From an uncultured Spirochaetaceae bacterium (lineage in GTDB: Bacteria; Spirochaetota; Spirochaetia; Sphaerochaetales; Sphaerochaetaceae), in assembly GCA_964482325.1 (NCBI GenBank), contig CAYZXD010000001.1:3461-67460 (forward strand): 64,000 nt of DNA, read 5' to 3'. Positions 15,450 through 42,700 of the stretch are shown here, one piece after another. How positions within the stretch are numbered: position 1 is the first letter of the stretch; the number at the start of each line of letters is the position of its first letter. The position numbers were made by a program, and so were the translations under genes. The notes below the pieces were generated by a model that had not been told where the DNA came from, made no database searches, and saw nothing but the letters and a program-made list of their open reading frames with translations.

Positions 15450-15567
15450 ACATCTCCTATTCGGTGGGTTTGTATCTCAGAGGGTACAGCAACTGAGCAA
15501 AACTTGATAGACTCCGGTAAGTTGCTTCCGGCAGCCTACATCAGAACAAGGGATGGACTGATTACAT

Positions 15568-16482: not shown

Positions 16483-16544
16483 GAAAATCAGCTACCGAAT
16501 GACGCCACTATTGTGCTATGATGCTCGATATAGAGAGGTAGTAC

Positions 16545-16922: not shown

Positions 16923-16957
16923 GGACTTTCAGATGTTTGTTATAACGGAATGAACCT

Positions 16958-17827: not shown

Positions 17828-18370
17828 ATGGAACCGTTACTGATTACAAGTACATTGTTAATACTGCTAACAGGTTATCCAACTAACCCTGCAGTACAGT
17901 ATCAAGTGTGAGGTGAAGGTTCTTCAGTTGGAACCAGCATCTATGACGATGAAGCAGATGGTATTGATGATATTCCCGGTTACCGCTATCTGGAAGCTGC
18001 CCCAGAAGATCTCTCGACCACCTTCCAATAGAATACTGCCATAATTGTACAAGCTATGGGAAATAATGCGTGTTCTGCAGTAAACTGGGGACCTCCTGCA
18101 ACAGTTACTGGAGATCTTATCGGTTCTTACGCAGCAAGCCTGTGTGCGGATTACGAACTGAATGAGTTTAACGATTGGGTCCTCCCTTCGAGTGAAGAAT
18201 TACATGAGCTGTATGAACAATTAAATCGAATTAGTAGGGGTTCAAAATTGTACTGGAGTTCCTCAGAATATAATCAAGAAAATGCTTATGCAGTAGATTT
18301 TTCTACAGGAGATAACAGTACCACCGTCCGAAGTGCACTCCGACATGTTCGCCCTGTGAGAATGTTCTAG
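17828..18370 (+). pseudogene. DUF1566/Lcl C-type-lectin-fold lipoprotein with two in-frame nonsense codons
   Basis: AGGAG RBS and ATG 17828; single frame with TGA at 17909 (Gly expected in YQVG) and TAG at 18029 (Trp expected). Motifs YDDEADGIDDIPGYRYLEAAP, DWVLPSSEEL, YWSSSE...VRPVRMF. Confidence 0.8.
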
Positions 18371-26343: not shown

Positions 26344-27672
26344 ATGGAAGAGCATTATCTGCAGCAGGAATTATACGATCTGGTAAAAAGTGATACCGGC
26401 ATTTTCGAGTTCATTCAATCGGGGGCTCTGGACGGTCTGTGGTATTGGGATCTGGAGCAAATCGAGCATGAATGGCTGAGTCCCAAGTTTTGGACAACAC
26501 TTGGATACGATCCTGAAGACAAAAAGCATCTTGCAAGTGAATGGCAGAATATTATCAACGAGGAAGATCTTGCTCTGTCAAAAGAAAATCTTGAGAAGCA
26601 CTGTGCCGATCCCGATTATCCCTATGATCAGATTGTACGATACAAACATAAGAACGGTTCAACTGTTTGGATACGCTGCAGAGGGATGGCCATCCGCGAC
26701 TCAATGGGAAAGCCGGTACGAATGTTGGGAGCCCATACTGACATTACCGACTTAAAAATTGCTGAAAGGGAACTCTCCCGAATATCGAGCGAATATGAAA
26801 AAGTGTTTAATGGTACACAGGATGCGGTGTTTCTGTTGCGGGTTGTCGGTCCCGGTCAATTTCGTTTTATTCGTAACAATCTTGCCCATCAACACAAAAC
26901 AGGTATTCTTGCTGATCAGATCAGGGACAAATCACCTCAAGACCTTCTTGGGGAAGAATTGGGAAATATTGTTGCAAAGAATTATCAGAAATGTGTGGAA
27001 AGTAAAAGGGTGGTGACCTACGAGGAAGAGTTAGCGCTTCCCGAAGGGACTCGGTTCTGGCAGACCACACTGACGCCCATACTTGAGCAAGGCAACGTGG
27101 CATATATCGTCGGTTCGGCGACTGATCTGACCGAACGCAAAAACCTTGAGTTTAAGCTGGAAAAATATGCCCATTATGACACGTTGACCGGAATTTCCAA
27201 TCGACGGCTGTTTTTTGAATATCTTGAGCGAATCATCTGCGAGAGGGGAGAGGAATCGCAGAAATTTTCACTACTCTATATCGATCTCGATGGATTTAAA
27301 TATGTTAATGATACGCATGGACATGAAGCGGGAGATGCGGTCCTCATTGCCATTGCGAATCGGTTGCTTCAGAGTATTCGAAATACCGACTTTGTGGCTC
27401 GTTTAGGTGGAGATGAATTTGCCGTCATTCTTAATGGTAATCAATCATTTTCTGCTGTACAACAATTCGCTATCACGTTGCATGACAAAATCGAGGAACC
27501 TATTACCATGGGTCCACTTCACCTTACCGTGAGCGCTTCCATCGGTATCGCCATATTCCCTGATTCCGGAGAGGATACGGAAACACTGATGAGAAATGCC
27601 GATGTCGCAATGTATGACATCAAGAAAAATGGAAAAGGTGGCATAAAAATCTACTCAAAGCAGGTACAGTGA
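26344..27672 (+). CDS. PAS-PAS-GGDEF diguanylate cyclase
   Basis: PAS_3 (DGLWYWD...RYKHKNGSTVWIRCRG), second PAS, DTLTGISNRR, RNTD I-site + RLGGDEF. Confidence 0.92.
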   Translation: MEEHYLQQELYDLVKSDTGIFEFIQSGALDGLWYWDLEQIEHEWLSPKFWTTLGYDPEDKKHLASEWQNIINEEDLALSKENLEKHCADPDYPYDQIVRYKHKNGSTVWIRCRGMAIRDSMGKPVRMLGAHTDITDLKIAERELSRISSEYEKVFNGTQDAVFLLRVVGPGQFRFIRNNLAHQHKTGILADQIRDKSPQDLLGEELGNIVAKNYQKCVESKRVVTYEEELALPEGTRFWQTTLTPILEQGNVAYIVGSATDLTERKNLEFKLEKYAHYDTLTGISNRRLFFEYLERIICERGEESQKFSLLYIDLDGFKYVNDTHGHEAGDAVLIAIANRLLQSIRNTDFVARLGGDEFAVILNGNQSFSAVQQFAITLHDKIEEPITMGPLHLTVSASIGIAIFPDSGEDTETLMRNADVAMYDIKKNGKGGIKIYSKQVQ

Positions 27673-28077: not shown

Positions 28078-28908
28078 ATGGGTAACATCTTCATCTTGCT
28101 CATTCTCATGCTATTTATGACTGTGAATATATTTGCGGGTATGCCACCAGTCAGATATTGGACGCCGGATGGCACTGATGCGATTGTTCAAAGCATACCA
28201 AAACGAGCAGAGCCCAAAATCATTCCCATCCTCTATCATAATATTGTCTATGGCAGAACGGGTAACGTGTATAACCGGGATATCTACAATTTTGAGCAGG
28301 ATCTCAAGTTTTTTAAGAAGAATTTTACTATCATCACCTTTGACGATCTCATCAGTATCACCGAAGGGACCGTAGAGCTCAATACTGATGCAGTTATCAT
28401 CACCTTTGATGATGGGGACCTCTCCATGTACGCAATTGTCTACCCCCTGCTTGTTGAATATGATATTCCTGCCACATTCTTCATTGTTCCGAGCTTTGTC
28501 GGAAAAGTGGGTTATATGAGCTGGGAACAGATCAGAGCGATGGAAGGGTATCGTAATAAAAACGGAAAGAAGCTGTTTACTTTTGAGTCGCATTCTTTAA
28601 CGCATGCACCGCTAGGCGAGCTCTCTTATACGCAGATTCTGTATGAATTAGTTGAATCAAAACGTATAATAGAACAGGAAACGTTGCAGCCTGTTTCCGT
28701 TATTGCGTTGCCTTATGGAAGTGGAGCTCAGTCCGACCAGGTGCGCAAAGCTGTGCAACACAGTGGGTATCGCATGATTCGTACATCATTCCCTTCGGCT
28801 ATCTCTCCTGACTCGATAGATCTATACAACTTATCTGCTTTCAATGTTGAAAGTTACAGTACCGATACACTGATCAAAAATATTCAGCAGATCCTGAAGA
28901 GGAGATAA
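28078..28908 (+). CDS. Exported polysaccharide deacetylase (CE4, IcaB/PgaB-like)
   Basis: Signal peptide, IPILYH, ITFDDG, ATFFIV, FESHSLTH (D-H-H triad), ALPYG. Confidence 0.9.
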   Translation: MGNIFILLILMLFMTVNIFAGMPPVRYWTPDGTDAIVQSIPKRAEPKIIPILYHNIVYGRTGNVYNRDIYNFEQDLKFFKKNFTIITFDDLISITEGTVELNTDAVIITFDDGDLSMYAIVYPLLVEYDIPATFFIVPSFVGKVGYMSWEQIRAMEGYRNKNGKKLFTFESHSLTHAPLGELSYTQILYELVESKRIIEQETLQPVSVIALPYGSGAQSDQVRKAVQHSGYRMIRTSFPSAISPDSIDLYNLSAFNVESYSTDTLIKNIQQILKRR

Positions 28909-28912: not shown

Positions 28913-29671
28913 TTGAGCCAAGGACTTCGTGCAGCTATTGTATTTTTGTTGTTCTGCATGTGTGCCCCACTGTATAGTTCTCCTGTTATTCAGCGACCGG
29001 AGAATCAAAGTTCCCGCGAAATTGACTTTTGTGGGTTTACCTGGAGAGTAAAGTCGTCCATTGTACCTGTGGCACCAGGTCCAAATATCTATCGCGGAAC
29101 TGAAGATGCAGTTTTTGTAAGTGAAAGAGGTCTCCATCTCACTATCGGAAGAGACCAGGATCACTGGTATGCTACCGAAATATTCACAAGAAAACGAGTT
29201 GGTTATGGTACTTATACTTTCACGGTTGAAACCGATGCGCTCAACTACGATCCTTCCGTGGTAGCCGGGTTTTTCACCTGGGACAGCGAACCGGTAGAGT
29301 TCAATCGGGAGATCGATATCGAGTTTGCTTCATGGGGGAGTCACGACGGAATCAGGTTCCAGTACGTTGTGCAACCGTACAGTATACCGGAAAGAATCAC
29401 CGTTTTTGATCCAAAGCTTCAGGGAAGTGTATCCACCCATCGCATTATATGGCTCGCCGACTCCGTTGAATTTTTAAGTTATCATGGGGTAGTCGATCCC
29501 GATGATCCCGAAGCTGACACCATGCTGATGAATCAATGGAAATTTATCGGGGATGTCCCATCAGAAGGAAGAACCCGATTCAGAATCAACCTATGGTTGT
29601 TCCAAGGGAAAGAACCGGCAAAACAGACTGAAATGATCTTGCGATCTTTCAAGTTCGACCCTTTGCGTTAG
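28913..29671 (+). CDS. Exported glycoside hydrolase family 16
   Basis: Signal peptide, GYGTY, GFFTW, catalytic EIDIEF motif. Confidence 0.85.
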   Translation: MSQGLRAAIVFLLFCMCAPLYSSPVIQRPENQSSREIDFCGFTWRVKSSIVPVAPGPNIYRGTEDAVFVSERGLHLTIGRDQDHWYATEIFTRKRVGYGTYTFTVETDALNYDPSVVAGFFTWDSEPVEFNREIDIEFASWGSHDGIRFQYVVQPYSIPERITVFDPKLQGSVSTHRIIWLADSVEFLSYHGVVDPDDPEADTMLMNQWKFIGDVPSEGRTRFRINLWLFQGKEPAKQTEMILRSFKFDPLR

Positions 29672-32489
29672 AGACGAAACCCTTCCGGACTTGTGCTCCC
29701 CAACCCCGGTTGCTTCTCATGGCATTGAAGTAGGAACCTACACGCCATAGACTGATGTACTGACGGATGCCAAAATTTTCCGCTATAGCCATCCCAAGGA
29801 GTCTGAAGATATCACCGGTTCCATAAAGCTCATGATCTATTTCGTTCACCCAAATGGAAAAAACACTTACAAAGATTCCGAGAAGGACCGTCGAGCTAAA
29901 GAGTAATAATGCGATCGGCAGATTGAGTAAACCGAGCATTGCAGATAGTGCGACAAAGAAAAGGCCTTGAGCCTCAATGATTGGTCCCATGAACTCAAAA
30001 ATAAAATAATATGGCATACCGATCAGACCAAGCAGTCCATAACGGGGATTAGCAATCATTGAACTGTGAAACAGCATAATATCTATCAGACCGCGATGCC
30101 ACCTGTCCCGTTGTCGATGGAGGATCTTCCAAGATTCGGGAACCTCCGTCCAGCAATTTGCGTTATAGGCGTAATTGACGCGGTAGGGAATACGCAGATC
30201 TCTCATATGCCGCGTCAACCTGACTACCAGCTCCATGTCTTCACCCACCGTATCTTTTTGAAATTTCTCACTCTTGGTTAGGTATCCTCCAGTTTGTATA
30301 GTTCTTTTCCTGTTGAAGATTCCGAACGCACCACTGATGATCAGCAGAAGATTCATATGAGCCCATCCGACCCGTCCTGACATGAATGCTCGAATATATT
30401 CCAGCGATTGAAGCCGAGGAAGGAATTTTTTTGGAATAGAAATCGTGTCTAACGATCCCATCTCAACTTCACAACCATTCACCGGACAGATATTTCCTCC
30501 AGCGGCAATTACCTCACGCTCTGAATCAATCATGGTCGACACAGCTCTGAGTAACGCGTCCGATTCTAGGAGGGAGTCAGCGTCGATGCCGCAGAAATAA
30601 CTTTTTGAGGCTACATTCAATCCCAGATTGAGTGAATCAGCTTTTCCCCCATTCACTTTATCGACAACGATCAGATTCGGTATGTGTTTCGTGGTATACA
30701 CACCACGCATCGGACGGGTCTTCAGTGTGGAGTATACGATACTATCTCGTTTTTCCAGGTGGTAATAATCAATCAAATGCTTCAGTGTGTCATCTTTTGA
30801 TCCATCATTAACGACTATCAATTCAAAATTGGGATAACGCTGATTCAATAGGGAGTTGACGCTCTCTATGATGGTAGCAGCCTCATTGTACGCTGGGGCG
30901 ATGATAGAAATCGATGGAAGGAGATGCGGAGTGAACAACATGTGATCATCCTTGCTCTGCCACAATAGTGATTGTATGTGAGCTCCTCTAATCGAAATTC
31001 CTAGGATAATCAGATACACGACATTGATGAACACTGAGTAGAACGCGAACAAATAATTAAAACGGACCACAAACAGTCTTCCGATTTCAGGCCATGGCAA
31101 GTGAACAATCTCGGTGATTTCCCAGACAATCGTGATTATAGGTGGAATAAGAAGTATCAGAAGTAGGATGATAATCAGTCGTACCCGTTGAGGCTTTTCC
31201 GCATGAGGAGGAGGCAAGTCAGTCGTCCGGTCTCCATCGGTCACAAGCAGGATTTTTTGCAATCGTGTATCAAGATACTGCCTCATCTGTGATCTGAGTT
31301 GGGAATCTGTCTTGGCAAGAGGAGTAAACGTCATGATGATTGTGTTTTCGAGAGCAGAATTTTTGTTGCGATTGAGAAAAAAGAGTATTCCACTGGTTTG
31401 CTTAACATCGACAAGCCGTTTGATAAGATCAACAATTTCATCATGTAACGGCCCATTGATCTGCAGAAGAAAATAATCGATACGTTGGTTCAGTACGCGG
31501 GCGAGCAGCAGTTGTTCTTGTTTCACTTTGGTACGACGAAAATAGTCGAGTATATCAATCATGAGGGATGGTTTATGCATGGTCATCCTGATAAGAACTC
31601 TGACAATTTCTTCATGCAGTGCTTCATGCGAGGTATATGAGAGGATCGTGGCGATATTTGTGCGTGTTTGGCTCTTTCCATAGGCACGGAGAACAGCCCC
31701 CATCACATCACGATCCCGGCTTGTCGTAAAACGTCGATGCAACAGTTGTTCAGGAAAGTGTTTGAGAAGAGCTGTCAACGCAAGCTTTTGTACAGATTTA
31801 TTCTGGGAAAGTGCTTTTTCACGGATATAGTGAAGAAATTCTTTATGTGGATAGTCAGATACATAACTGCAGATAATTCGATGCATATACGTATGGGGAT
31901 TCTTTAATTGCTTCAGCAGGTAGGGCGCCAGCATGCTACCATACGTATTTAGAACAGCCTGTAACCGAATTGCCATGTGAGGTTTTGATCGTCTGATCTG
32001 TCTTACCAATAAAGGAATTGCTGGCCTTACGTGTTGGATAGACAAGGCTTGGCCAAGATACAAGGCCACTGTTGAATTGTGTTCATTCTTGAGTGCCTCC
32101 AGCAATGAAGCTTGGATATCATCTCGTTTGAGGTATCTCAGGCCAGCAGCAGATTCGATTCTTCGAAACCGTGAACGGGAGTGAAGTCCTCTCATCAAAT
32201 GCTCCGGGATGGAGCTGGACAAAATCCGATCCTGTAGTGGCTGTAACAGGTCTTTTGGAAGCGTGATAGTATTCTGGAGATGCTTATAAGAAGCAAATAG
32301 CGATTCAGGAGGTACATCTACTCCAATTGGACTGTTGGATAGCAGATGTTTTTCAATCAACGTATCAATTTCCTTCTGGCGCACATCGCGCATTCTTCTC
32401 AGGTATTTGGTTGCTATTGTAAGGCTTATCATCACGAGATCAAATATAAATATCGATAGGGTCAGTATAATCGCAAACTGCACTTGCAT
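29649..32489 (-). CDS. HEAT-repeat domain fused to a processive GT2 polysaccharide synthase
   Basis: N-terminal TM + HEAT-like helical repeats; APAYNE, VNDGS, GGKADSLN, IDADS (DxD), GEDMEL, QRDRW (QxxRW); C-terminal TMs. Confidence 0.92.
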   Translation of the reverse strand: MQVQFAIILTLSIFIFDLVMISLTIATKYLRRMRDVRQKEIDTLIEKHLLSNSPIGVDVPPESLFASYKHLQNTITLPKDLLQPLQDRILSSSIPEHLMRGLHSRSRFRRIESAAGLRYLKRDDIQASLLEALKNEHNSTVALYLGQALSIQHVRPAIPLLVRQIRRSKPHMAIRLQAVLNTYGSMLAPYLLKQLKNPHTYMHRIICSYVSDYPHKEFLHYIREKALSQNKSVQKLALTALLKHFPEQLLHRRFTTSRDRDVMGAVLRAYGKSQTRTNIATILSYTSHEALHEEIVRVLIRMTMHKPSLMIDILDYFRRTKVKQEQLLLARVLNQRIDYFLLQINGPLHDEIVDLIKRLVDVKQTSGILFFLNRNKNSALENTIIMTFTPLAKTDSQLRSQMRQYLDTRLQKILLVTDGDRTTDLPPPHAEKPQRVRLIIILLLILLIPPIITIVWEITEIVHLPWPEIGRLFVVRFNYLFAFYSVFINVVYLIILGISIRGAHIQSLLWQSKDDHMLFTPHLLPSISIIAPAYNEAATIIESVNSLLNQRYPNFELIVVNDGSKDDTLKHLIDYYHLEKRDSIVYSTLKTRPMRGVYTTKHIPNLIVVDKVNGGKADSLNLGLNVASKSYFCGIDADSLLESDALLRAVSTMIDSEREVIAAGGNICPVNGCEVEMGSLDTISIPKKFLPRLQSLEYIRAFMSGRVGWAHMNLLLIISGAFGIFNRKRTIQTGGYLTKSEKFQKDTVGEDMELVVRLTRHMRDLRIPYRVNYAYNANCWTEVPESWKILHRQRDRWHRGLIDIMLFHSSMIANPRYGLLGLIGMPYYFIFEFMGPIIEAQGLFFVALSAMLGLLNLPIALLLFSSTVLLGIFVSVFSIWVNEIDHELYGTGDIFRLLGMAIAENFGIRQYISLWRVGSYFNAMRSNRGWGAQVRKGFVSNAKGRT

Positions 32490-32490: not shown

Positions 32491-34524
32491 TCAGTTCTCC
32501 TCTATCTGTATGCGTTTGGCAATCATCTTTACCACTCCGATCAGCTCAACAAGGAGTACAGGGCGAAGGAAGAAATGACTGATATTCATTTCAAGTGCTC
32601 TATTTACTGTATTTTCATTCTTCACTGCGCTCATGAGGAGAAATGGGATATTCCTTGTCTCAGGATTATTCAGCAACTCCTTACGAAGCGTGATAGCGTT
32701 GATCTTTTCCACCATAAGCTCACTTATGATGATGTCCGGGAGCTCCGTCTGAATCTGAAGTTTAGCTAACAGACCGTTATCCGCAATGAAGACCTGAAAC
32801 CCTTCACGTATCAATTCTTTCTTGATCAGTTCACGTCCCAGACCTGGCGGATCAATCAGCAGCACGGTATGGAGAGATTTTTCACCCAGGGGGACTATTG
32901 AGGAGGAAACTAGGATTCTTCCACCTCGTTTCTGAGCAAGTCGTAGTCTGAATTGAGTTGTCTGAACCATCACGGCTTTCAGTTGTTCTTCATCATTTTG
33001 CAGGGAATCAGGAAACTCATGGGAACAGAAAATACCTCCGGAAATGGTTATCGGGACTATGAATGCCTCAGAATCGGAAACTGTATGTATCAATTTCTCA
33101 ACTTCCTCAATCACGTCTGATCCTGCAAGATTCACCGTATAGAGACCAAAAACACTTCCAGCTAAACGAAATACTTTGCAGTCAAACGAAAGATGCCGTT
33201 CGATTATGAAGGTGAGATTCCTTAAGGTTGCATCCCCCTCAGAACTTCCGAAATCGATATTGATCTGAGCAAGATTGTCTACACTCAACATAACACAGCA
33301 GATACTTTGTTTTTCTGAAATCATCTGATGTATGATCTCAGTAATGAAGAGATTATGGACATTCTGATTGTAAAGGCCGGTAACTGCATCTCGAGAGAGG
33401 CTTTCCTGCAGTTCGTTCAACCGTAACTCCAAGCTTGATCGCTCCTTTTCCAAGTTATCAATTTGTATCGACTGCGAAGATATAATACTGCTTGCCTCAA
33501 ACGCCTGAGTTCTGAATACTTTCGGAAGAGGAATTGCATATGATTTACTGAGCATTTCAGCTGTCGGGGCAATGATCGTTATCCATTCGAGACCCTTTTT
33601 CTCTAATACCAAGTTGAAAAAGGTCTCCCAAATATCCTCATCTTGTGTCTTACATGAGGTCACTTCCCGTGTTGCATCATCGAACTGAAATGCAGAATCG
33701 TTGAACAATTGCTGGACATCGGTCAACGTGTAAGTTGCCAGATATCGTTTTACAATCTGGTTGCAAAGGGCAAGATACCCTCCCGCTTCCATGAGGTCTT
33801 TTTTTACGAGATCGAGGAATAGTCCACAAGAGAGATCCCTGAGAATCTCAATATGACGACGAGGATTCTTAGTGATAATTGAGCCATGTTGTGGACAAAT
33901 CATTGAAATATCATATTGAAGCAATGTATCCATAGTTGATTTAAGGATGGCATGAGAAGGCATGTAGGTCTCATGAAATGTCTTCATGGCTTCCTCATAA
34001 TCAGGACCGGCATAGAGATTCCACTGTTTGGTGACTGCACCGAAAACATCACCGGAGAGAAGGACCTTCTGTTGAGGAAGATAGGTCATGATTGCTCCGG
34101 GGAAATGGAGATAAGGAGTAAAAATAAACTCGATGGAGGACCCGTCGACCAACGGAAATCGATAATTTTGCAAATTCACGTGGTAGAATGATCTGTGTAC
34201 GCCATAATAGGAAATAATCAAGGATGCCCGAGTGTGACAGCAATACACCCCTTTGAACCCATGCTTTTCAAATAGCGGGAGAGAGGAACAGAGATCGGGA
34301 TCTTGATGGCTACAGACAATCGCATCAAGTTTTTGTATGGGAACAAGTTGTTGTACTTTGTGAGAAACAATTTCAAAATCAAGCACTGATCCGGCATCGA
34401 ACAGGATTGCACTCTTTCCCTGTAATAGAAGAAAGGGGTTGCATTGGAGATTCCTCTTTGTATCATTCACCCCAACCCACCAGAGCCCATCAGTTATCGG
34501 AATTGGATTGGTACTTTCTGTCAT
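32491..34524 (-). CDS. ODP-type di-iron (MBL-fold) sensor + degenerate GGDEF + atypical receiver
   Basis: SHQDPD, HFPG, SGDVFG, PQHG; coiled coil; DAVTGLYN...SVDNLAQINIDFGSSEGD with RLAGSVF in place of RxGGDEF; REC with ISELM (phospho-Asp replaced by Glu). Confidence 0.85.
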   Translation of the reverse strand: MTESTNPIPITDGLWWVGVNDTKRNLQCNPFLLLQGKSAILFDAGSVLDFEIVSHKVQQLVPIQKLDAIVCSHQDPDLCSSLPLFEKHGFKGVYCCHTRASLIISYYGVHRSFYHVNLQNYRFPLVDGSSIEFIFTPYLHFPGAIMTYLPQQKVLLSGDVFGAVTKQWNLYAGPDYEEAMKTFHETYMPSHAILKSTMDTLLQYDISMICPQHGSIITKNPRRHIEILRDLSCGLFLDLVKKDLMEAGGYLALCNQIVKRYLATYTLTDVQQLFNDSAFQFDDATREVTSCKTQDEDIWETFFNLVLEKKGLEWITIIAPTAEMLSKSYAIPLPKVFRTQAFEASSIISSQSIQIDNLEKERSSLELRLNELQESLSRDAVTGLYNQNVHNLFITEIIHQMISEKQSICCVMLSVDNLAQINIDFGSSEGDATLRNLTFIIERHLSFDCKVFRLAGSVFGLYTVNLAGSDVIEEVEKLIHTVSDSEAFIVPITISGGIFCSHEFPDSLQNDEEQLKAVMVQTTQFRLRLAQKRGGRILVSSSIVPLGEKSLHTVLLIDPPGLGRELIKKELIREGFQVFIADNGLLAKLQIQTELPDIIISELMVEKINAITLRKELLNNPETRNIPFLLMSAVKNENTVNRALEMNISHFFLRPVLLVELIGVVKMIAKRIQIEEN

Positions 34525-37500
34525 CTTTTCTCCTTGAAATATCTTTGTAATATGGAATAACTTTCCTTGATTCGTTCACGGTATCGTGGGTAGTTCCATG
34601 GTTGCCACGGTAGAAATCCAACTGATTCATCAGCCGCAGTACCAAAGTTCCCGACAACCTGCCGACTCTCTTTTTCTACCACGACTGCTGATACTCTGAT
34701 CCCTTCTGAGAGCTTCGTGTGCAACACATCACGAGGGGGATCGGTATTAAAAGTCCTGTCATCATCCAGAACTCGACCTGATGATGGATCTGAAACATTG
34801 ATCCTTCCCCAAGGTATCCTGAGAGTGATTGCAGATCCCGTATGCAACCAATGATTGGTTGCTCCCTCCTGATGCCCATAACGCAGTGAAGACGATTCTT
34901 CATACCGTGCAGGGATTGGAGTAAGATCCGGTAAAGCTCTGGCCCGATTGATGAGTTTATGCATGGAAACGAACAGGCCTCTTGATTCAAGTCCTTCATA
35001 GGAGGAAAAGCGATATTGAGTACTGTTAGCGGGGGGAATAGCGAGCAGTCTTGCCGTCGTTGTTCCATCAAGAACCACCATAAATTCCATACCAGAGAGA
35101 GATTGGAGGGCAATATCAGGCCCATAGCTTAACTCACCTCTGTCTCGAGCGTAGGTATCGATACCGATCATAACTGCATGCTTATCAAAATCGATAGAAT
35201 CAGCAAAATCCATATCAATGTGGAGGTATGATGCATCCAGAGAGAGTCCAACCGCACTGATCATGTTATTATTGAGTGTAATCAATGTACTTCGTCGTTC
35301 TGGTTTAACTGCTTCTAAAGCAAGGATGCCGTAGTTCTGTTCAGGGTCGATGGTATTGTGCCAGAGAATCTGTCGGTCATAGGGAATCATATACGGTTCT
35401 GTTGTCCAAGTCTTCTTTGCCCATTCATCCATCCATTCGAAGATGATGCCTCCGGCATATCCTTCCCTCCGCATTGCTTCAAACATTCTGATGATCCCAT
35501 ATCCCTGTTCCTGTTCGGTCATGGAGCCATGATGATATCCATCAGGATTTTCATGAGCATTGCCCATACCAGTTGCCAACCCGAATTCAGCTACAACTGC
35601 AGGATAAGCCTTATGGTCTTCCATGAATTCTCTCAGGTAACCCCCATACCGAAACCGTCCCCGGTCATCCTGATACTCATCGTACAAAGGATCATTGTTC
35701 ATAAAATCGGGGTAGTTCGGATAAATATGGTAGGCTCCGAAGATGCCGGTTTTCAATTTTTCACCTGGCAATATATTGTTGATGTTCACCGTGGTGTAAT
35801 CATTCATTTCGAATACTTTTTTCCCCTCTTCATTGCGTTCAGATGGATGATCGATGGGATCAAGTGTCGGCCAGTTTACTATCGCGACTGGATGTTGCCA
35901 TCCATAACGATTTTCTTCATAGGCAAGCGTGTAATCCATACTGGAGGCAAGCCATACCTCCGTAGGAGAGGCTTCAGGACGGGTAGTGATATAAGCTCCG
36001 CTGAAACGGACATTTGGGTTTTTTCGATCCGTCTCAAAAACTTCATGTGGTTCCAGTTCTCTTCCAACGAGATATCCCAAGACATAAGCGGATACGTCAC
36101 TCGTATAATTCCCCCAGGCTCTCCCTCGACGTTCCGGAATAACTGCATTACCATGAACAGCATCAATGACATGACGAATTTCCTGTTCAAATGCAACTTG
36201 ATAGCTCTCTTTTAAGTAATTCTCTTCTTCAGGATATTCCTCCGGCCAGATTTCCTGCATAAGATATAACTGGGTCGCTGGATTGAGCTGATTGTACAGC
36301 AGTAGAGCATCGTAGAACATGGGGTCGAGCAACGTATAGATTCGAATGGTATTCACGCCCAACTCCCCAATCTGTTCGAGCCACCGATAGTACAAGGACT
36401 TGTCTTGCGGGAAATCAGTGAACCACTTGCCCGGCATTGCTATACCGATATTTATTCCATGGATAAATAGATCTTCCCATTGATTATTACGCCAGGTCTG
36501 CAACCTCTTCCCTTCTGTTCGTGAAACCATCATAGTACCGTCAACTTGCGTAGAGGTACGAGTACTCTTTCTGATCGGGGTCTCTTTTCGTTCCCTTGTT
36601 TCTTTGGCAATCGACTGCATCAACGGAAGATACAGATGCCAAAAAAAGCTCTTTTCATTTTCGATGGAATTGGGTATCGCTGTACGCATCACCGATGAAA
36701 GCCCGGCGAGGTAGGGGAAGTTTATTGGGCGTGAGCTGAAGGCCCAGTTGCCGGCAAGATAATAGGTGCTGTGGTAGGCTGTTTCCCCTCGAATAATTGC
36801 AGGAAATGTAGGACTCAGTCCGACCTCTTTAAGCATCTGTTCGCCTTTTTCATGTACGTCCAAGGTGTATGTGGCTAGTACTTCAGCCCCTGAAAGCGGT
36901 TCTACAATATCGAACTGTATGGGTACTTGATATATACCGGAAAGACCGAGAGCAGTCTCTCCTTCTGGAGTAAAAGCGAACTGATTTGCCAGAGGACCAA
37001 TTTCCTTGCCCATGGTTAAAACTAAAAAATCATCATCCGTATTGAAGAGGACAAATCCGCTTCCTGTATAGTTCCAGATTGCTCCCGATTTTTTTTCATA
37101 CTCATCAGGTATCCAGGAGGGCACATCACCCGATCTTGAAAGATCAATAACATAGGTTCCTGTCCAGCCAGTCCACCGGGAACGGAACATCTCATAGAGC
37201 TGGGTCTGAATATAGGGTGGCGTAGGAGTGGCGAATGTATTGTATTCAGCGATGATGGTATTCGGCATGTCCCGGTTCAAAAAAGCTCTCAGGGTATCAA
37301 CATCTTCCTGCTTCATCCCTCCATATAGCAGATTGCTGCCAACCTGGTCGGATTGCCCACGAATGAACCCCTCTCCTTCACGATAGACCCCGTATGTATC
37401 GGAGATATAGACGATATCCAGATCATCAGGAAGTGGTCCCAGTGGTACTATATCGCTGTCCCCGGAAGGTAGGAGATGCCGCCCCCTGTAGGAAATCGGC

Positions 37501-37790
37501 ATCTGGTGTCGTACTCCCGATTCGTTAAACATCTTCGAGTGATGTAAAAACCATGCAAGACCTGCATGATGTTGAACCGGCAATGCAGGGACTGTCTTGG
37601 TGTAAACCAATAGGGAAACAGGAACAGTGGGTGTAATCACCCAGATCACAAATGGTGATATCAATAGCAGGAACACTAGTACTGCTATAATAATGAGAGG
37701 ATTCTTTTGATATTCACCGGGAGTGGTTAATTTATCCCCTTTTTTCTTTCGCATATACAAACAGTATAAATTAGTCTTATCTCCTTTCAT
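34521..37790 (-). CDS. 1089-aa membrane-anchored protein: N-terminal extracytoplasmic domain + clan GH-A-like TIM-barrel glycoside hydrolase
   Basis: Single N-terminal TM; GINIG, GVNTIRIYT, GRELEP, VVAEFG, GGIIFEWMDEWAK; ATGA overlap with the next gene; start uncertain (37790 or 37754). Confidence 0.75.
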   Translation of the reverse strand: MKGDKTNLYCLYMRKKKGDKLTTPGEYQKNPLIIIAVLVFLLLISPFVIWVITPTVPVSLLVYTKTVPALPVQHHAGLAWFLHHSKMFNESGVRHQMPISYRGRHLLPSGDSDIVPLGPLPDDLDIVYISDTYGVYREGEGFIRGQSDQVGSNLLYGGMKQEDVDTLRAFLNRDMPNTIIAEYNTFATPTPPYIQTQLYEMFRSRWTGWTGTYVIDLSRSGDVPSWIPDEYEKKSGAIWNYTGSGFVLFNTDDDFLVLTMGKEIGPLANQFAFTPEGETALGLSGIYQVPIQFDIVEPLSGAEVLATYTLDVHEKGEQMLKEVGLSPTFPAIIRGETAYHSTYYLAGNWAFSSRPINFPYLAGLSSVMRTAIPNSIENEKSFFWHLYLPLMQSIAKETRERKETPIRKSTRTSTQVDGTMMVSRTEGKRLQTWRNNQWEDLFIHGINIGIAMPGKWFTDFPQDKSLYYRWLEQIGELGVNTIRIYTLLDPMFYDALLLYNQLNPATQLYLMQEIWPEEYPEEENYLKESYQVAFEQEIRHVIDAVHGNAVIPERRGRAWGNYTSDVSAYVLGYLVGRELEPHEVFETDRKNPNVRFSGAYITTRPEASPTEVWLASSMDYTLAYEENRYGWQHPVAIVNWPTLDPIDHPSERNEEGKKVFEMNDYTTVNINNILPGEKLKTGIFGAYHIYPNYPDFMNNDPLYDEYQDDRGRFRYGGYLREFMEDHKAYPAVVAEFGLATGMGNAHENPDGYHHGSMTEQEQGYGIIRMFEAMRREGYAGGIIFEWMDEWAKKTWTTEPYMIPYDRQILWHNTIDPEQNYGILALEAVKPERRSTLITLNNNMISAVGLSLDASYLHIDMDFADSIDFDKHAVMIGIDTYARDRGELSYGPDIALQSLSGMEFMVVLDGTTTARLLAIPPANSTQYRFSSYEGLESRGLFVSMHKLINRARALPDLTPIPARYEESSSLRYGHQEGATNHWLHTGSAITLRIPWGRINVSDPSSGRVLDDDRTFNTDPPRDVLHTKLSEGIRVSAVVVEKESRQVVGNFGTAADESVGFLPWQPWNYPRYRERIKESYSILQRYFKEKR

Positions 37791-38114: not shown

Positions 38115-39143
38115 CTACAACAAATAAATTTCTTTATCGATGAACAGATCGACAAGTTGTGGATCAAATTGTTTTCCGGAACAGAGTTTGAGTTCCTCTA
38201 TGGCCAGTTCTGTGGGCAATGCTGAACGATAAGCCCGATTACTCGTCATCGCATCATAAGCATCAGCAAGTGCCACAATTCTTACATCAAGAGGAATCTC
38301 AGAGCCTTTCAGTCCGTCGGGGTATCCTTTTCCATCCATTCGCTCATGGTGGCTTCGTATGATCGGACGATATTCCTGGAACAGATCAATATGTCCGATG
38401 ATTCTCTCTCCGGAAATCGGATGCATATGGATAATTTCCATCTCTTCATCGGTGAGTTTTCCCTTCTTGTTCAGAATTTCCTCTGAAATACCGACCTTCC
38501 CGATGTCGTGAAGCAATGCACCCCCTTCAAGGATAGACAGGTGCTCTTCCGAGAAGTTCAGAGCCTTTCCTAAAGCGATAGCGATGTTGCGTACCCGATG
38601 ACAATGTCCTTTTGTGTAAGAATCTTTTTGCTCGATGGTTTCAGAAAAAGCTTCCAATGTGGCACGAGTGGTATTCTTCAGAGCGGATAAGGCCTGTCTG
38701 AGATTACTCTCCAATGTTTTTTGGTAATCGCGGTTTTGTGCCAGTGAAGCCAACTGTTCCCGATGAACCACCGATTTGGAGAGTGTCCGATCGACGCAAT
38801 CGAGTAGCGTCTCACGTTTTACCGGTTTCGTCAGATAATCTGAAGCTCCCGCTCTGATTGCTTTCATCCCGGTATCCAGGTCATTAAATGCGGTCAGCAT
38901 TACTACCGGAAGAGCGGGGTGATGTTGCTGTATCATCTCAAGCACATCAAATCCTGAGGGACCAGGCATCTTAATATCAAGGAGTACCAGATCTACATGA
39001 TTTCCCTCTGTAGCAAGGACTTCTTTCAACTCATATCCATTTTGACAGGGAGTGACATCATAGCCCTGCTTAGTCAGAAAGAGCTGCAGGACCTTTCGTA
39101 TTGCCGGGTCGTCATCTGTCGTCACGATATGTCTGTTCATCAT
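38115..39143 (-). CDS. REC-HD-GYP response regulator (RpfG-like c-di-GMP phosphodiesterase)
   Basis: Intact receiver (DDD, LLDIKMPG, MLTA, LTKP); GHCHRV, HDVGK, HHERMDGKGYP, ADAYDAMTS. Confidence 0.93.
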   Translation of the reverse strand: MMNRHIVTTDDDPAIRKVLQLFLTKQGYDVTPCQNGYELKEVLATEGNHVDLVLLDIKMPGPSGFDVLEMIQQHHPALPVVMLTAFNDLDTGMKAIRAGASDYLTKPVKRETLLDCVDRTLSKSVVHREQLASLAQNRDYQKTLESNLRQALSALKNTTRATLEAFSETIEQKDSYTKGHCHRVRNIAIALGKALNFSEEHLSILEGGALLHDIGKVGISEEILNKKGKLTDEEMEIIHMHPISGERIIGHIDLFQEYRPIIRSHHERMDGKGYPDGLKGSEIPLDVRIVALADAYDAMTSNRAYRSALPTELAIEELKLCSGKQFDPQLVDLFIDKEIYLL

Positions 39144-39676
39144 TCATTTCTCCATAGACGCCTACTGAACGACAGCACTAATGGTGTGTGTTGTTTATAT
39201 TTGTCGTATCCGGCAAAAATTTTTGGAAAGATAATGATGTCTTCAAGCATGACCAGTACAAAATTACACAGAATCAGACCCAAACACAGCAAAGTAATTC
39301 CCACATCCCAAAAGAATACTGCTACCAGCAGGTTAACGATAGTATACCAGAGAAAGCCCGGATGTCGAGAAAAACTATAGGTCCCTTGTGTATACAATTG
39401 ACCGGAACGCGATGAAAAAAGGGCTGTCTCGATAAAAACTGAATAGATAAGGAGGATGACGAAACATCCGATTATCACCAATAATCCCAAAGAAAAGAGA
39501 GTTTTATGGGGAGAACGATAGGAATAAAAGAGGAAGATATAAGGAACTGCAGTAAGGAAAAAGCCTAGAGAAAAAAGCTTTTTCATGAATGATTTGTCGT
39601 ACAATATCGCAATATCATACATCCCTACTAATAAATATCCTGCTAATCCAAGCATAAATAGTTTGAAATTTTCCAT
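39140..39676 (-). CDS. ICMT/PEMT-family membrane methyltransferase
   Basis: About 5 TM; LYTQGTYSFSRHPG and ED...F...Y..Y...TP family motifs; overlaps the HD-GYP start. Confidence 0.78.
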   Translation of the reverse strand: MENFKLFMLGLAGYLLVGMYDIAILYDKSFMKKLFSLGFFLTAVPYIFLFYSYRSPHKTLFSLGLLVIIGCFVILLIYSVFIETALFSSRSGQLYTQGTYSFSRHPGFLWYTIVNLLVAVFFWDVGITLLCLGLILCNFVLVMLEDIIIFPKIFAGYDKYKQHTPLVLSFSRRLWRNE

Positions 39677-39733
39677 TGCCTGCATAATAATAATACAAGT
39701 TATATACATTTGAAAAGTGTAAAAGGATAGCTC

Positions 39734-42700
39734 ATGATCATCGACATTTCGACCATTATTCCTGCTGTGGCCTTCATACTTTATGTATCGTTTGCAGTAT
39801 TCGGTTTTTCGCAGTACAAGAAGGACCGGTTCTATTGGTCATTCCAGCTTTATATGGTGCTTTTCTCCATTTGGAGTTTTGGTTCCATGATGATGCACCT
39901 CAACAGTGGAATCCTTACTCCCTTGTTCTGGAACAAAGTGATGCTGGTAGGGTTGTTATCTGCCTCGTTTGCATTGAGCAACTTTATCCTCGACATTCTG
40001 AATCTTCACACTAAACCGATAAGACGATTTATCTATGCGAGTTATCTCCTGATTATTCCCCTGACTTATCTTAATGTGACCGGCTACATCGTCCATGACG
40101 CAGGGTTTCGTCCCGATGGATCATTCTTCTATGAGTTGGGTCCCGGAGCAATCTTTGCCTATTCAATAACGTACGTCTATTTGATTTTTACTCTGATCAT
40201 GCTGCTGTTTCGTACGAAATATCGTCCCCTGAAAGAGGAGCATAAGAATCTGATTCTTCCGCTGGTTGGTGTGTTGATTATGCTGATCGGAATATTCATC
40301 AATGTATATCCTCCTCTGGGTAAATATCCGGTTGATATCTTTACTGCTACGATCAATGCGGTCCTGTTGTTCTACACCATCTACAAATTCAAGCTGATAA
40401 ACTATTCACTATTGGCCTTGAAAATCATTTATTCTACCTTTCTCGCGATCGCTGCGTCCATTTCATATTATGTGATCATTGTTTTCTTACGCATATTCAA
40501 TCCGGCCTTTGTTCCCGGTGATGCATTCCAATTCTCTTTTGTGCTCGGAATTGCCACCGTCATCGTGATACAACCCCTGAGGAACCTGTTTTCCTATCTT
40601 GTAGACAACGTAATCATTCCAAGAAGGCACCCCTACCAGACAACCATCAAGAAACTGAGCAAACGATTGACGACTATCGTAAATCTCAGAGAACTCGGCG
40701 AAGAGGTTGTGAGTAATCTGAGTACCGGTCTGAAAACAGAATGGGTGCTTTTTGTTGCCAAGAGAAGCAATACAGCCGATGCTTTTACCTTGATTGCCAA
40801 TAGTAACTGTCCTACAGAATTACGTATTGGGCAAGAGGTTGTATTTGCCTTTTCCAATCAGGTCAACGATAGGTTGCAGCGTTTGCAACGGGAAAATATT
40901 TCTTCAATTCTGAGTGTAAAACCTGATGAACCCCGATTTGAAGTGAGTGACCAGTTGCCTGAAGTCGATGTATTGATTCCCCTTGTTTTTCGGGAACAGA
41001 TAGCAGGGTATATCGTCATTGGATTTGATCGTACCAAGAGCCTCATAACATCAGTCGAAATGGAAGCGCTGGAAATATTAGCTTCCCAGAGTTCTCTCTC
41101 ATTGGAGAACGCGCTCTCCTTCGAAAAGTTGCGGATACAGGGTGACGAATTGACTATGAGTAAGAACAAATTAGAAGCAATCTTCAATGGTATCGCTTCT
41201 CCCGTGTGTCTGATCGATATCGATTATTCTATCCAGGAAGCCAATACCGCTGCAGTAAATCTTTTTGGAAACAATAGAAAAGAGCTTATTGGAAAAAAAT
41301 GTTATCGTGAATTTTTTCATCGTGCCAAGCCATGTCGCTACTGTCAGGCAATGGAATGTCTCCATTCCGGTATTGTGCAGGAGACAGAAGTGGAAGTTTC
41401 TGACAGCATCTACTCGTTCCAGTTCCATAATGTACGGGTCCCGGAAAATTCCAAAAGTGTGTTTATTGAGATTATTCACGATATCACCGAACAAAAGAAT
41501 TTCCAGGAAGAATTGGTAAGAACCGAGAAAATGGCAAGTGTCGGTACCCTTGTAGCGGGAATTGCACATGAATTGAACAATCCTCTTGCTGGGATTTATG
41601 GTACCGCTGAAGTCATGCTCACCGAAGTTGAGGAAGCACATCCGCACCATGAATATCTCACAGATATTCTCAGTTATGCAAAAACTGCCGCAGATGTAAT
41701 ACAGGAATTGACCACATACTCCCGCAAGAAAGAGTTGACTGAAGTGCAACAGGTCGACCTGATTAAGGTGCTGGAGTTCTCCCTGAGGCTTGCAATGCGT
41801 GGCGTTGACTCCTCCGGCATTGAAGTAAAACGGAATTATCATGCACTTCCGGTGTTGGAGGCGAATGAAGGAAGTCTGCAACAGTTATTTCTCAATTTGA
41901 TTGTGAATGCCATACAGGCGATGGAAGGGGAGGGAACCTTGACCCTTACCTGCTTTGAAAAGGATGAGTTCGTCCATATTAAAATCGGAGATACCGGCTG
42001 TGGTATTTCAGAGAAAAATCTCAACCAGATATTTACTCCATTTTTTACCACAAAAGCTCCTGGAAAAGGCACCGGATTAGGCTTATCCAATTGCTATGGC
42101 ATCGTAGAAAAAATGGGCGGCCGTATCAGAGTGCGCAGTGAAGTTGATGTCGGTTCTGAGTTCTCCACGATATTCCCTCTGAGCGATGAAGGACGGGATG
42201 TGATCCGGTTCGTTCTGGTAAATGATCAGGTTGGTATGAACGATGTCTTTTTTCTCCAGCGTAAAGTACTCGTAGGAGAGAAGGGGTATATGGAGGAGAC
42301 CATTCATCGGGCCGAAGATGAAAAGGCTACGCATATTCTGGCATTTAAAGGGCTGCACCCAGTGGGGACCGTTTCTCTGATGACCTCTGATACCTGTTGG
42401 CCGCTTCCCATTTCACGTTACTTTAACATTGATTCGGTTCTGCATTCGAAAAAGTGTTCCGAATTTATTCGTTTGGCCGTCCTGCCCGAGATGCGCAATA
42501 CCTCGGTATCTCTTGGTCTGATCGTACTCGTATTCCTTCTTGCACGAAGCAGAGGAGTGGAGGACATGATCATCGATGTGTTTGCCGATGACAAAAAGAC
42601 CATCAAACTATATAAAAAATTCGGTTTCAGAGAAGTCGGCACCTATTATTCTCCTTCGGCGGTTACCGTATTGGCTTTGCAGGAAAAAACTACCATGGAA

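What the first reader, a model, noticed from the sequence alone, without database searches (positions are those of the whole stretch)
32491..34524. Di-iron oxygen sensor fused to a dead cyclase and a phosphomimetic receiver inside an EPS operon
Seen: ODP motifs (SHQDPD, HFPG, SGD, PQHG). GGDEF is replaced by AGSVF with no RxxD I-site. The receiver has Glu at the phospho-Asp position and lacks the acidic pocket. Known: ODP is an O2/iron-sensing di-iron protein characterised with chemoreceptors in Treponema denticola and Thermotoga maritima. Inference: both output domains are non-catalytic, so the protein may be a pure protein-protein adaptor passing O2 or iron status directly to the adjacent synthase, independent of c-di-GMP synthesis or phosphorylation.
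Basis: partly seen in the sequence, partly recalled or inferred. Interest (0 to 1): 0.76.

Follow-up and report, generated by a model that had tools for sequence, protein, structure and literature searches.

The report
Di-iron sensor partner of polysaccharide synthase
This gene encodes a cytoplasmic protein with an intact oxygen/iron-binding di-iron sensor domain followed by a dead cyclase domain and a dead receiver domain; because it always sits directly in front of one particular membrane sugar-polymer synthase, it is most likely that synthase's own oxygen- or iron-responsive regulatory subunit, a pairing I did not find described in the literature I searched.

Summary
ORF 32491-34524 (-) encodes a 677-aa protein with four parts: an ODP di-iron domain, a small middle domain plus coiled coil, a GGDEF-fold domain with AGSVF and no RxxD, and a receiver fold with Glu at the phospho-Asp site.

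These are family traits. In 181 homologues all metal ligands are kept, none has GG(D/E)EF or RxxD, and 178 have the Glu.

The gene is translationally coupled between a periplasmic 1089-aa GH-A-like protein and a 946-aa HEAT-GT2 processive synthase. In 55 of 55 evaluable genomes, spanning Spirochaetota, Bacillota and Fibrobacterota, the synthase orthologue follows immediately. The reverse check also held.

Divergent offshoots keep the synthase and the Glu pseudo-receiver but have a degenerate ODP or none. The constant element is therefore a pseudo-receiver co-subunit, and ODP is its sensory input.

Elsewhere ODP is fused to histidine kinases, to GGDEF-EAL with an intact motif, and to PP2C phosphatases. 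This supports a sensor role.

However, O2 or iron binding, direct contact with the synthase and independence from nucleotides remain unmeasured.

I found no description of this pairing in the literature I searched. I rate it a new variant of known kinds (ODP sensors; PelD/BcsE-type synthase co-regulators).

The parts
32491..34524 (-). Sensor gene (P0001, 677 aa): ODP, middle domain, coiled coil, GGDEF*, REC*. It is soluble, with no TM segment or signal peptide.
33838..34503 (-). ODP di-iron domain (residues 8-229). Putative ligands are H73, D75, D77, H140, D159 and H213, plus the ODP-specific H184.
   Evidence: Pfam ODP E 2.8e-54. phmmer to T. maritima ODP 6qrq gives E 2.9e-24. Foldseek to 6qwo gives E 1.8e-17 and TM 0.80; the peroxo-ODP 6r9n is also hit. 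The ligands are kept in 179-181 of 181 homologues. Ligand assignment is by alignment to flavodiiron protein 1ycf plus my knowledge of FDP ligands.
33520..33792 (-). Small alpha/beta middle domain (residues 245-335) of unknown type. It is absent from stand-alone ODPs.
   Evidence: AF2 secondary structure. W299, G311 and P334 are conserved. The solved ODPs align only to residues 16-237.
33394..33507 (-). Long helix (residues 340-377). It is a probable dimeric coiled-coil signalling helix leading into the GGDEF fold.
   Evidence: AF2 helix 340-377. Foldseek hits to coiled-coil-GGDEF structures 6ttr and 3i5c.
32920..33393 (-). Degenerate GGDEF-fold domain (residues 378-535). AGSVF (nt 33148-33162) replaces GG(D/E)EF, and there is no RxxD I-site.
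32497..32868 (-). Pseudo-receiver (residues 553-676). Key positions are D558-P559, E602 (nt 32719-32721) at the phospho-acceptor site, S632 and R654.
29649..32489 (-). HEAT-GT2 processive synthase (P0002, 946 aa). Order of parts: TM1, about 400 aa of cytoplasmic HEAT-like repeats, two TMs, a GT2 domain with DAD636, ED750 and QRDRW793, then C-terminal TMs.
   Evidence: HEAT_2 is sub-threshold here (19.3 bits) but clear in orthologues, e.g. P0202 at 73 bits.
34521..37790 (-). 1089-aa N-terminally anchored, probably periplasmic protein (P0003). It has an alpha/beta domain, a clan GH-A-like (beta/alpha)8 barrel and beta-sandwich domains. It is a frequent but not obligatory member of the module.
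   Evidence: No Pfam or PDB sequence hit. AF2 pLDDT 82, pTM 0.82. Foldseek top hit is the GH157 endo-beta-1,3-glucanase 9g5g at E 1.9e-11, followed by GH5_26, GH2 and GH72. Present in 29/41 evaluable loci.
28913..29671 (+). Convergent 252-aa secreted GH16-like protein (P0244) with an EIDIE catalytic-type motif.
   Evidence: A 48%-identical homologue in L006 passes the Pfam GH16 cut-off. Conserved downstream of the synthase in the spirochaete loci.
28078..28908 (+). CE4 polysaccharide deacetylase with an N-terminal anchor. It is conserved next to the GH16-like gene in the closest relatives.
   Evidence: Pfam Polysacc_deac_1 E 5e-21. Synteny. TM segment.

Best explanation
The protein is the dedicated cytoplasmic regulatory co-subunit of the adjacent HEAT-GT2 polysaccharide synthase.

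Proposed mechanism:
1. The N-terminal ODP domain carries a di-iron centre that reports O2, and/or Fe(II) availability or redox state.
2. A change at the metal site alters the ODP dimer and is passed down the coiled-coil helix.
3. This repositions the two fossil signalling domains, the GGDEF fold and the Glu-locked pseudo-receiver.
4. These domains act only as protein-contact surfaces, most plausibly on the cytoplasmic HEAT arm of the synthase, and switch polymerisation on or off.
5. No c-di-GMP synthesis, I-site binding or phosphorylation is involved.

The synthase works with periplasmic partners (the GH-A-like 1089-aa protein, a GH16-like hydrolase and a CE4 deacetylase) to make and trim an unidentified, possibly beta-glucan-like or partly deacetylated exopolysaccharide. 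Most hosts appear to be anaerobes (my own knowledge of these taxa), so the likely logic is an O2-triggered change in surface polymer.

Shown here: domain identities, ligand conservation, loss of catalytic and acceptor motifs, obligate gene pairing and membrane topology.
Inferred: metal and O2 binding, physical contact with the synthase, and the direction of control.
For: - Domains and motifs.
- Family-wide pattern in 181 sequences: H73, D77, H184 and H213 in 181/181; D75, H140 and D159 in 179/181; no GG[DE]EF; no RxxD; E602 in 178/181.
- ODP is the most constrained domain: 52/222 columns are at least 95% conserved, against 8/158 for GGDEF*.
- Pairing: the synthase is immediately downstream on the same strand in 55/55 evaluable loci. 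The loci come from Spirochaetota, Bacillota and Fibrobacterota genomes. At least 586 matching stretches were found among species-representative genomes.
- Reverse check: GT2 orthologues P0202 (annotated as Candidatus Neomarinimicrobiota) and P0192 have the sensor upstream with a 4-nt overlap.
- The pair is duplicated as a unit in C. grantii.
- Topology: the positive-inside rule and the even TM count put both the HEAT arm and the GT2 domain in the cytoplasm with the soluble sensor.
- ODP is a modular input domain elsewhere: fused to GAF-HisKA-HATPase-REC, to PAS-GGDEF(intact)-EAL, to HisKA-HATPase and to SpoIIE.
- Precedents: degenerate REC*/GGDEF* domains used as protein-contact modules in a synthase complex (BcsE, PMC7439463); a GGDEF domain that recruits a partner protein (PMC11962490).
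Against: - There are no biochemical data for any member.
- AF2 gives confident domains but an uncertain arrangement between them (pTM 0.50), and no complex could be modelled.
- GGDEF* keeps several fold and substrate-site residues in this copy (D416, N422, D431, R453), so nucleotide binding is not excluded.
- Some relatives keep the pairing with a degenerate ODP or none. Sensing is therefore dispensable for the core role.
- A REC-HD-GYP gene and an intact PAS-GGDEF gene lie nearby, so c-di-GMP could still act on the system by another route.
Confidence: 0.6

Rival explanations
1. The protein is a constitutive structural or assembly subunit. It is needed to fold, dimerise or localise the synthase, and the di-iron site is structural or only reports iron sufficiency. 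There is no O2 switching.
For: Offshoots with a degenerate ODP (G092), a truncated ODP (G150) or no ODP (G024/G062) keep the pairing with the synthase. The Glu pseudo-receiver is the element kept in the ODP-less and truncated-ODP partners.
Against: In the main family every metal ligand is kept in 179-181 of 181 sequences, and ODP is the most conserved domain. ODP is used as an input domain on kinases, GGDEF-EAL proteins and phosphatases. The solved ODPs include a peroxo state (6r9n).
Confidence: 0.17
2. The protein is a nucleotide-dependent regulator. The degenerate GGDEF fold still binds GTP, c-di-GMP or another nucleotide at the former active site or at a non-canonical site, so the protein integrates a nucleotide signal with the ODP signal.
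For: This copy keeps D416, N422, D431 and R453, the PleD D327, N335, D344 and R366 equivalents. An intact DGC and an HD-GYP protein are encoded within 7 kb. Precedent: degenerate GGDEF receptors PelD and BcsE.
Against: No RxxD in 0/181 sequences. The base-binding positions are not conserved across the family (N422 in 93/181, D431 in 115/181). The nearby c-di-GMP genes are not conserved outside the closest relatives.
Confidence: 0.13
3. The ODP domain is an enzyme rather than a sensor, for example an O2/NO-scavenging or hydrolytic metallo-beta-lactamase-fold activity that protects or modifies the synthase or its substrate.
For: It has the MBL fold, and its nearest non-ODP relatives are flavodiiron O2/NO reductases.
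Against: There is no flavodoxin or other electron-donor domain. The FDP His after the HxExD motif is replaced by Leu/Phe, as in sensor ODPs. The best sequence and fold matches are to the sensor ODPs.
Confidence: 0.05
4. The adjacency is incidental. The sensor acts on another target, such as chemotaxis or the neighbouring HD-GYP regulator.
For: Characterised ODPs act on chemoreceptor/CheA arrays (PMC7666581).
Against: Pairing is 55/55 across phyla, with overlapping stop and start codons, and the pair duplicates together. No MCP or che genes are conserved nearby.
Confidence: 0.03

Closest known systems
ODP, the oxygen-binding di-iron protein of Treponema denticola (TDE2498) and Thermotoga maritima (PDB 6qnm, 6r9n, 6qrq, 6qwo)
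   Same: Same Pfam family (PF19583). Same HQDPD / H / D / FH..YM / PQHG pattern. Same fold (TM 0.80).
   Different: Those are stand-alone proteins of about 250 aa, genetically coupled to a cytoplasmic chemoreceptor and acting on CheA (PMC7666581). Here ODP is the N-terminus of a 677-aa chain and is coupled to a polysaccharide synthase.
BcsE of the E. coli-type cellulose secretion system (REC*-GGDEF* tandem)
   Same: It is a cytoplasmic co-regulator of a processive GT2 synthase complex, built from a degenerate receiver and a degenerate GGDEF that serve as protein-contact modules (PMC7439463).
   Different: BcsE senses c-di-GMP through an RxxD I-site, has the order REC*-GGDEF*, and has no metal sensor. 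Here there is no RxxD, the order is GGDEF*-REC*, and a di-iron input domain is present. I found no sequence evidence of common descent beyond the shared domain folds.
PelD (Pel system); from my own knowledge also Listeria PssE and Bacillus YdaK, the degenerate-GGDEF c-di-GMP receptors of synthase-dependent EPS systems
   Same: A degenerate GGDEF protein encoded in the operon and required to activate the glycosyltransferase (PelD is described in PMC7439463).
   Different: All of them rely on an intact I-site for c-di-GMP. The family here lacks it in 181/181 sequences.
Hemerythrin-DGC (Vibrio cholerae Bhr-DGC) and globin-coupled DGCs
   Same: A di-iron or haem O2 sensor is linked to a GGDEF domain and controls biofilm-type outputs (PMC8846402).
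   Different: Those outputs are active cyclases working through diffusible c-di-GMP. Here the cyclase is dead and the output is presumed to be direct contact with the synthase.
PgaC/IcaA, NodC, BcsA-type processive GT2 synthases
   Same: The D, DxD, ED and QxxRW motifs and multi-TM architecture of the partner enzyme. The best NCBIfam match is PgaC_IcaA (110 bits).
   Different: The score is far below the PgaC equivalog cut-off (422 bits). The partner has a unique N-terminal HEAT arm of about 400 aa and no PilZ or PgaD-type c-di-GMP module.

Membership tests
ODP family (Pfam PF19583) | Match to the family model above the gathering score, over the whole model | tested here: met
   184.4 bits against a cut-off of 27.2, model positions 1-194/194.
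ODP family (Pfam PF19583) | Di-iron ligand set on the MBL fold (H-x-D-x-D, H, D, H) plus the ODP-specific FH..YM histidine | tested here: met
   H73, D75, D77, H140, D159, H184 and H213 align with the solved ODPs and with FDP ligands. They are kept in 179-181 of 181 homologues. The fold matches 6qwo and 6r9n.
ODP family (Pfam PF19583) | Reversible O2 binding as a mu-peroxo di-ferric species; Fe(II) dependence | not testable with these tools
   This needs the purified protein (UV-vis, Mossbauer, ICP-MS).
Active diguanylate cyclase (GGDEF) | GG(D/E)EF active-site motif with the catalytic acidic residues | tested here: not met
   AGSVF lies under PleD GGEEF. 0/181 homologues have the motif.
Degenerate-GGDEF c-di-GMP receptors (PelD, BcsE, PssE, YdaK type) | RxxD I-site five residues upstream of the (degenerate) GGDEF motif | tested here: not met
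   S446 and C449 occupy the Arg and Asp positions. No RxxD lies within 14 residues upstream of the motif in 0/181 sequences.
Phosphorylatable response-regulator receiver | Asp phospho-acceptor at the end of beta3 with the DD, T/S and K quintet | tested here: not met
   E602 replaces Asp (178/181 Glu). The DD pair is D558-P559, S632 is kept, and Lys is Arg654. The fold itself is present.
Flavodiiron protein (O2/NO reductase) | MBL di-iron domain followed by a flavodoxin (FMN) domain, with an H-x-E-x-D-H motif | tested here: not met
   There is no flavodoxin domain. The motif is H-Q-D-P-D-L. NCBIfam FDP models score 62 bits against a cut-off of 635.
Synthase-dependent exopolysaccharide system | Processive multi-TM GT2 with D, DxD, ED and QxxRW, plus operon-encoded periplasmic hydrolase or modifying enzymes and a cytoplasmic co-regulator | tested here: met
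   GT2 motifs and TMs. GH-A-like P0003. GH16-like P0244. CE4 deacetylase. Polymer production itself was not tested.

The most novel reading that the evidence does not exclude
This would be a signalling route that needs neither a second messenger nor a kinase. A di-iron O2/Fe(II) sensor would be hard-wired, through a fossil cyclase and a Glu-locked pseudo-receiver, to the cytoplasmic HEAT arm of a processive polysaccharide synthase, so that gas or iron status gates polymer extrusion directly. The pseudo-receiver with 'SE' at the acceptor site is kept even in the ODP-less and truncated-ODP partners examined, so it would be the conserved docking element of a whole undescribed class of synthase-dependent EPS systems. 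At least 586 matching stretches were found among species-representative genomes, from Spirochaetota, Bacillota and Fibrobacterota, plus one homologue annotated as Candidatus Neomarinimicrobiota; most hosts appear to be anaerobes.
Probability: 0.4. Interest if true: 0.8.

Novelty: new variant of a known kind. Interest (0 to 1): 0.66.

Why it matters
Known synthase-dependent exopolysaccharide systems (cellulose, Pel, PNAG, alginate, Listeria Pss) are switched post-translationally by c-di-GMP. If this module works as proposed, some bacteria, mostly anaerobes, bypass the messenger and couple a metal-based O2/iron sensor directly to the synthase. That would be a new regulatory logic for biofilm or capsule formation on oxygen exposure.

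It would also give ODP, so far characterised only in chemotaxis, a second physiological output. It would provide a clean natural example of GGDEF and receiver folds re-used purely as protein-contact modules. Finally, it would flag an uncharacterised polymer system (HEAT-GT2 plus a GH-A-like 1000-1100-aa protein) that is common in gut, sediment and digester anaerobes.

The hypothesis is directly testable in cultured hosts such as Sphaerochaeta pleomorpha, Acetobacterium species and Desulfosporosinus acidiphilus.

Tried and rejected
- The ODP paper (Muok et al. 2019, PNAS) is not held. Ligand identities therefore rest on alignment to the solved ODPs and FDPs plus my knowledge of FDPs.
- Literature searches for this architecture or pairing found nothing relevant. 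A 2022 census of c-di-GMP sensory domains does not mention ODP.
- The promoter and terminator scan showed no enrichment over shuffles. It gave only a weak terminator-like hairpin after the HD-GYP gene.
- P0003 had no Pfam, NCBIfam or PDB sequence hit. Only the fold search placed it.
- No natural sensor-synthase fusion appeared among the top 150 representatives (longest 965 aa, and those are ODP-kinase or ODP-GGDEF-EAL proteins).
- A complex model of sensor plus synthase could not be made, because only single chains are allowed.
- I rejected the idea that the nearby REC-HD-GYP is an obligate part of the module. It is conserved only in the closest relatives (L008, L009, L060).
- I rejected 'PNAG system' as a membership call. 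The PgaC model scores far below its cut-off, and the associated hydrolases are GH16-like and GH157-like.
Full report
**The gene and its domains**

ORF 32491-34524 on the minus strand encodes 677 aa (P0001). Pfam finds ODP at residues 26-214 (E 2.8e-54, whole model), GGDEF at 378-503 (E 1.4e-12) and Response_reg at 554-664 (E 5.2e-9).

phmmer against PDB puts the sensor ODPs first: T. maritima 6qrq at 2.9e-24 and T. denticola 6qnm at 1.1e-16. Flavodiiron proteins and PleD follow.

An AlphaFold2 model built on 42 homologues has pLDDT 87.4 and pTM 0.50. It shows five parts:
- an MBL-fold domain (residues 8-229);
- a small alpha/beta middle domain (249-328);
- a 38-residue helix (340-377);
- a GGDEF fold (387-532);
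- a receiver fold (553-676).

Foldseek matches Zn-ODP 6qwo (E 1.8e-17, TM 0.80), the peroxo-ODP 6r9n, and coiled-coil-GGDEF structures.

All are present: SHQDPD 72-77, HFPG 140-143, SGD 157-159, PQHG 211-214 and AGSVF 455-459.

Alignment to flavodiiron protein 1ycf places H73, D75, D77, H140, D159 and H213 on six of the seven FDP ligand positions. The seventh, the His after HxExD, is Leu here and Val in the solved ODPs. A His in the 'FH..YM' motif (H184) is shared with both solved ODPs but not with FDPs. The ligand identities come from my knowledge of FDPs, because the ODP paper itself is not held.

Against PleD, AGSVF lies under GGEEF, and S446 and C449 lie under the RxxD Arg and Asp. In the receiver, E602 lies under the phospho-Asp, D558-P559 under the DD pair, S632 under Thr, and R654 under Lys. 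The acidic pocket is therefore half lost rather than absent.

The window supplies its own controls. The PAS-GGDEF protein at 26344-27672 has RNTD-x5-GGDEF. The REC-HD-GYP protein at 38115-39143 has a canonical receiver.

**These are family traits, not decay of one copy**

The word-indexed search found 623 proteins with the same four Pfam domains and a length of about 670 aa. The exhaustive search of 50% clusters found 265 representatives at E <= 1e-30.

In a 181-sequence alignment:
- H73, D77, H184 and H213 are invariant, and D75, H140 and D159 occur in 179/181;
- no sequence has GG[DE]EF;
- no sequence has RxxD within 14 residues upstream of the motif;
- the acceptor position is Glu in 178/181, with one Asp (Desulfosporosinus acidiphilus);
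- S632 occurs in 176/181, and position 654 is Lys in 102 and Arg in 70;
- the guanine-contacting positions are not conserved (N422 in 93/181, D431 in 115/181).

ODP is the most constrained domain: 52 of 222 columns are at least 95% conserved, against 8/158 for GGDEF* and 7/118 for REC*.

**Genomic context**

The sensor start overlaps the stop of a 1089-aa gene (P0003, 34521-37790) by 4 nt. Its stop is 1 nt from the start of a 946-aa GT2 gene (P0002, 29649-32489).

P0002 has an N-terminal TM segment, about 400 aa of HEAT-like repeats, two TMs, a GT2 domain with DAD636, ED750 and QRDRW793, and C-terminal TMs. HEAT_2 is sub-threshold here but scores 73 bits in orthologue P0202. The positive-inside rule and the even TM count place both the HEAT arm and the GT2 domain in the cytoplasm, alongside the soluble sensor.

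P0003 has no sequence-level family. It folds confidently (pLDDT 82, pTM 0.82) into an N-anchored extracytoplasmic protein whose central barrel resembles clan GH-A enzymes. The best hit is the GH157 endo-beta-1,3-glucanase at E 1.9e-11, followed by GH5_26, GH2 and GH72.

Two genes converge on the synthase from the opposite strand. One is a secreted GH16-like protein with an EIDIE motif (28913-29671). The other is a CE4 deacetylase (28078-28908). Together these make a complete synthase-dependent EPS layout. The polymer is unknown: the hydrolases hint at a beta-glucan, whereas CE4 and the weak PgaC similarity hint at an acetylated sugar.

**The pairing is obligate**

The 79 fetched loci come from Spirochaetota, many Bacillota (Clostridia, Acetobacterium, Syntrophomonas, Negativicutes) and Fibrobacterota. 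A GT2 homologue annotated as Candidatus Neomarinimicrobiota also has the sensor upstream.

- Of 55 loci with a full-length sensor and at least 3.2 kb downstream, all 55 have the HEAT-GT2 orthologue immediately downstream on the same strand.
- The P0003 orthologue is present in 29 of 41 evaluable loci. It lies upstream in Sphaerochaeta-type operons and downstream of the synthase in Firmicutes.
- Starting from the synthase side, two 40%-identical GT2s again have the sensor upstream with a 4-nt overlap.
- C. grantii carries two tandem sensor-synthase pairs.
- Within the window's own phylum the module is patchy: the sensor is in 4 of 300 other sampled genomes. This suggests horizontal spread.
- The window's genome has one copy.

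**Variants that sharpen the reading**

The same phylum sample holds eight other genomes with full-length HEAT-GT2 orthologues, but only three of them have a full-length sensor match. In the others I examined, the upstream partner is different.

- G092 has the same 674-aa architecture, but its metal ligands are degenerate (H73D, D77A, H140K, D159E) and Ser replaces E602.
- G150 has a 539-aa protein with a truncated ODP, GGDEF*, and REC* with 'VISELM'.
- G024 and G062 have a 315-aa protein with no ODP, a non-matching N-terminal region, and REC* with 'IISELA'.

A receiver-fold partner therefore persists in all of these variants, and its Glu is kept in the ODP-less and truncated-ODP forms. ODP is a sensory add-on, fully intact in the main family and in this window.

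Conversely, ODP occurs at the N-terminus of hybrid histidine kinases, of a PAS-PAS-GGDEF(intact GGDEF)-EAL protein and of a SpoIIE phosphatase, and follows a receiver in a REC-ODP protein. This is the signature of a modular input domain.

**Mechanism**

I think it most likely that the protein is a dimeric co-subunit of the synthase. Changes at the di-iron site (O2 adduct, Fe loading or redox state) would be transmitted through the coiled coil. They would reposition GGDEF* and REC*, which contact the cytoplasmic HEAT arm and gate polymerisation.

Shown: domain identity, selection on the ligands, loss of catalytic, I-site and acceptor residues, obligate pairing and compatible topology.
Inferred: metal and O2 binding, physical contact, direction of control and nucleotide independence.

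My confidence in the whole chain is about 0.6. For 'dedicated synthase partner' alone it is about 0.9.

The rivals are a constitutive structural subunit (0.17), a nucleotide-binding regulator (0.13), an enzymatic ODP (0.05) and incidental adjacency (0.03).

**Comparison with known systems**

The input is a member of the ODP family, so far characterised in chemotaxis (PDB entries; PMC7666581). That ODPs fused to signal-transduction domains exist had been noted (PMC7319448).

The output logic resembles BcsE and PelD, where degenerate REC/GGDEF folds act as co-regulators of a synthase (PMC7439463). It fails their defining I-site test. It also fails the tests for an active DGC, a phosphorylatable receiver and a flavodiiron reductase.

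My literature searches found no description of this architecture-synthase pair.

Other agents of this scan reported the same family in other genomes with the same reading. I treated those notes as leads and re-derived the evidence here.

**Verdict**

I rate it a new variant of known kinds, with interest 0.66.

Noticed in passing
window 28913-29671 (+): A 252-aa secreted protein with no Pfam hit of its own. It carries an EIDIE motif and is 48% identical to a homologue that passes the GH16 cut-off. It is conserved convergent to the synthase in spirochaete loci and is probably the system's dedicated glycanase.
   Followed up: partly
window 34521-37790 (-): A 1089-aa protein without any sequence-level family folds into a GH157/GH5-like (beta/alpha)8 barrel flanked by an alpha/beta domain and beta-sandwiches. 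E735 (VAEFG) and E578 (GRELEP) are invariant in 27 orthologues and are candidate catalytic residues.
   Followed up: partly
L097 8718-9665 (-) and L099 (G024/G062); L098 7958-9577 (-) (G150); L094 7037-9061 (+) (G092): Partner-gene variants upstream of HEAT-GT2 orthologues: a 315-aa protein with only the Glu pseudo-receiver (plus a 241-aa putative beta-barrel gene upstream); a 539-aa form with a truncated ODP; and a full-length form with degenerate metal ligands and Ser at the acceptor site.
   Followed up: partly
L004 / L027 (Clostridium grantii) 8001-17935: Two tandem sensor-synthase pairs, followed by a 1116-aa gene. The middle 987-aa gene has no Pfam hit on record but is 39% identical to the GT2.
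   Followed up: partly
P0093 (Desulfosporosinus acidiphilus SJ4), L001 10001-12025: This is the only one of 181 family members with Asp at the receiver acceptor position ('LIISDVM'), together with D-x-D, S and K. It might be phosphorylatable. Its locus lacks the P0003-type gene.
   Followed up: no
window 38115-39709 (-) and 39734-42880 (+): An ICMT-like membrane protein overlaps a REC-HD-GYP gene (NosR-family-like, 208 bits, below cut-off). This pair is divergent from a 7TM-PAS histidine kinase that carries a C-terminal FeeM/GNAT-like domain. The ICMT/HD-GYP pair is syntenic with the EPS module only in the closest relatives (L008, L009, L060).
   Followed up: partly
window 26344-27672 (+): A PAS-PAS-GGDEF protein with an intact GGDEF motif and an RNTD I-site. 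It lies next to a 256-aa ORF with no Pfam hit and a membrane H+-pyrophosphatase gene (23180-25330).
   Followed up: no
P0340, P0362, P0381, P0349, P0374: ODP occurs as the input domain of hybrid histidine kinases, of a PAS-GGDEF-EAL protein with an intact GGDEF motif, and of a SpoIIE phosphatase, and also follows a receiver in a REC-ODP protein. This is a wider repertoire of ODP-based signalling proteins than the chemotaxis role studied so far.
   Followed up: partly
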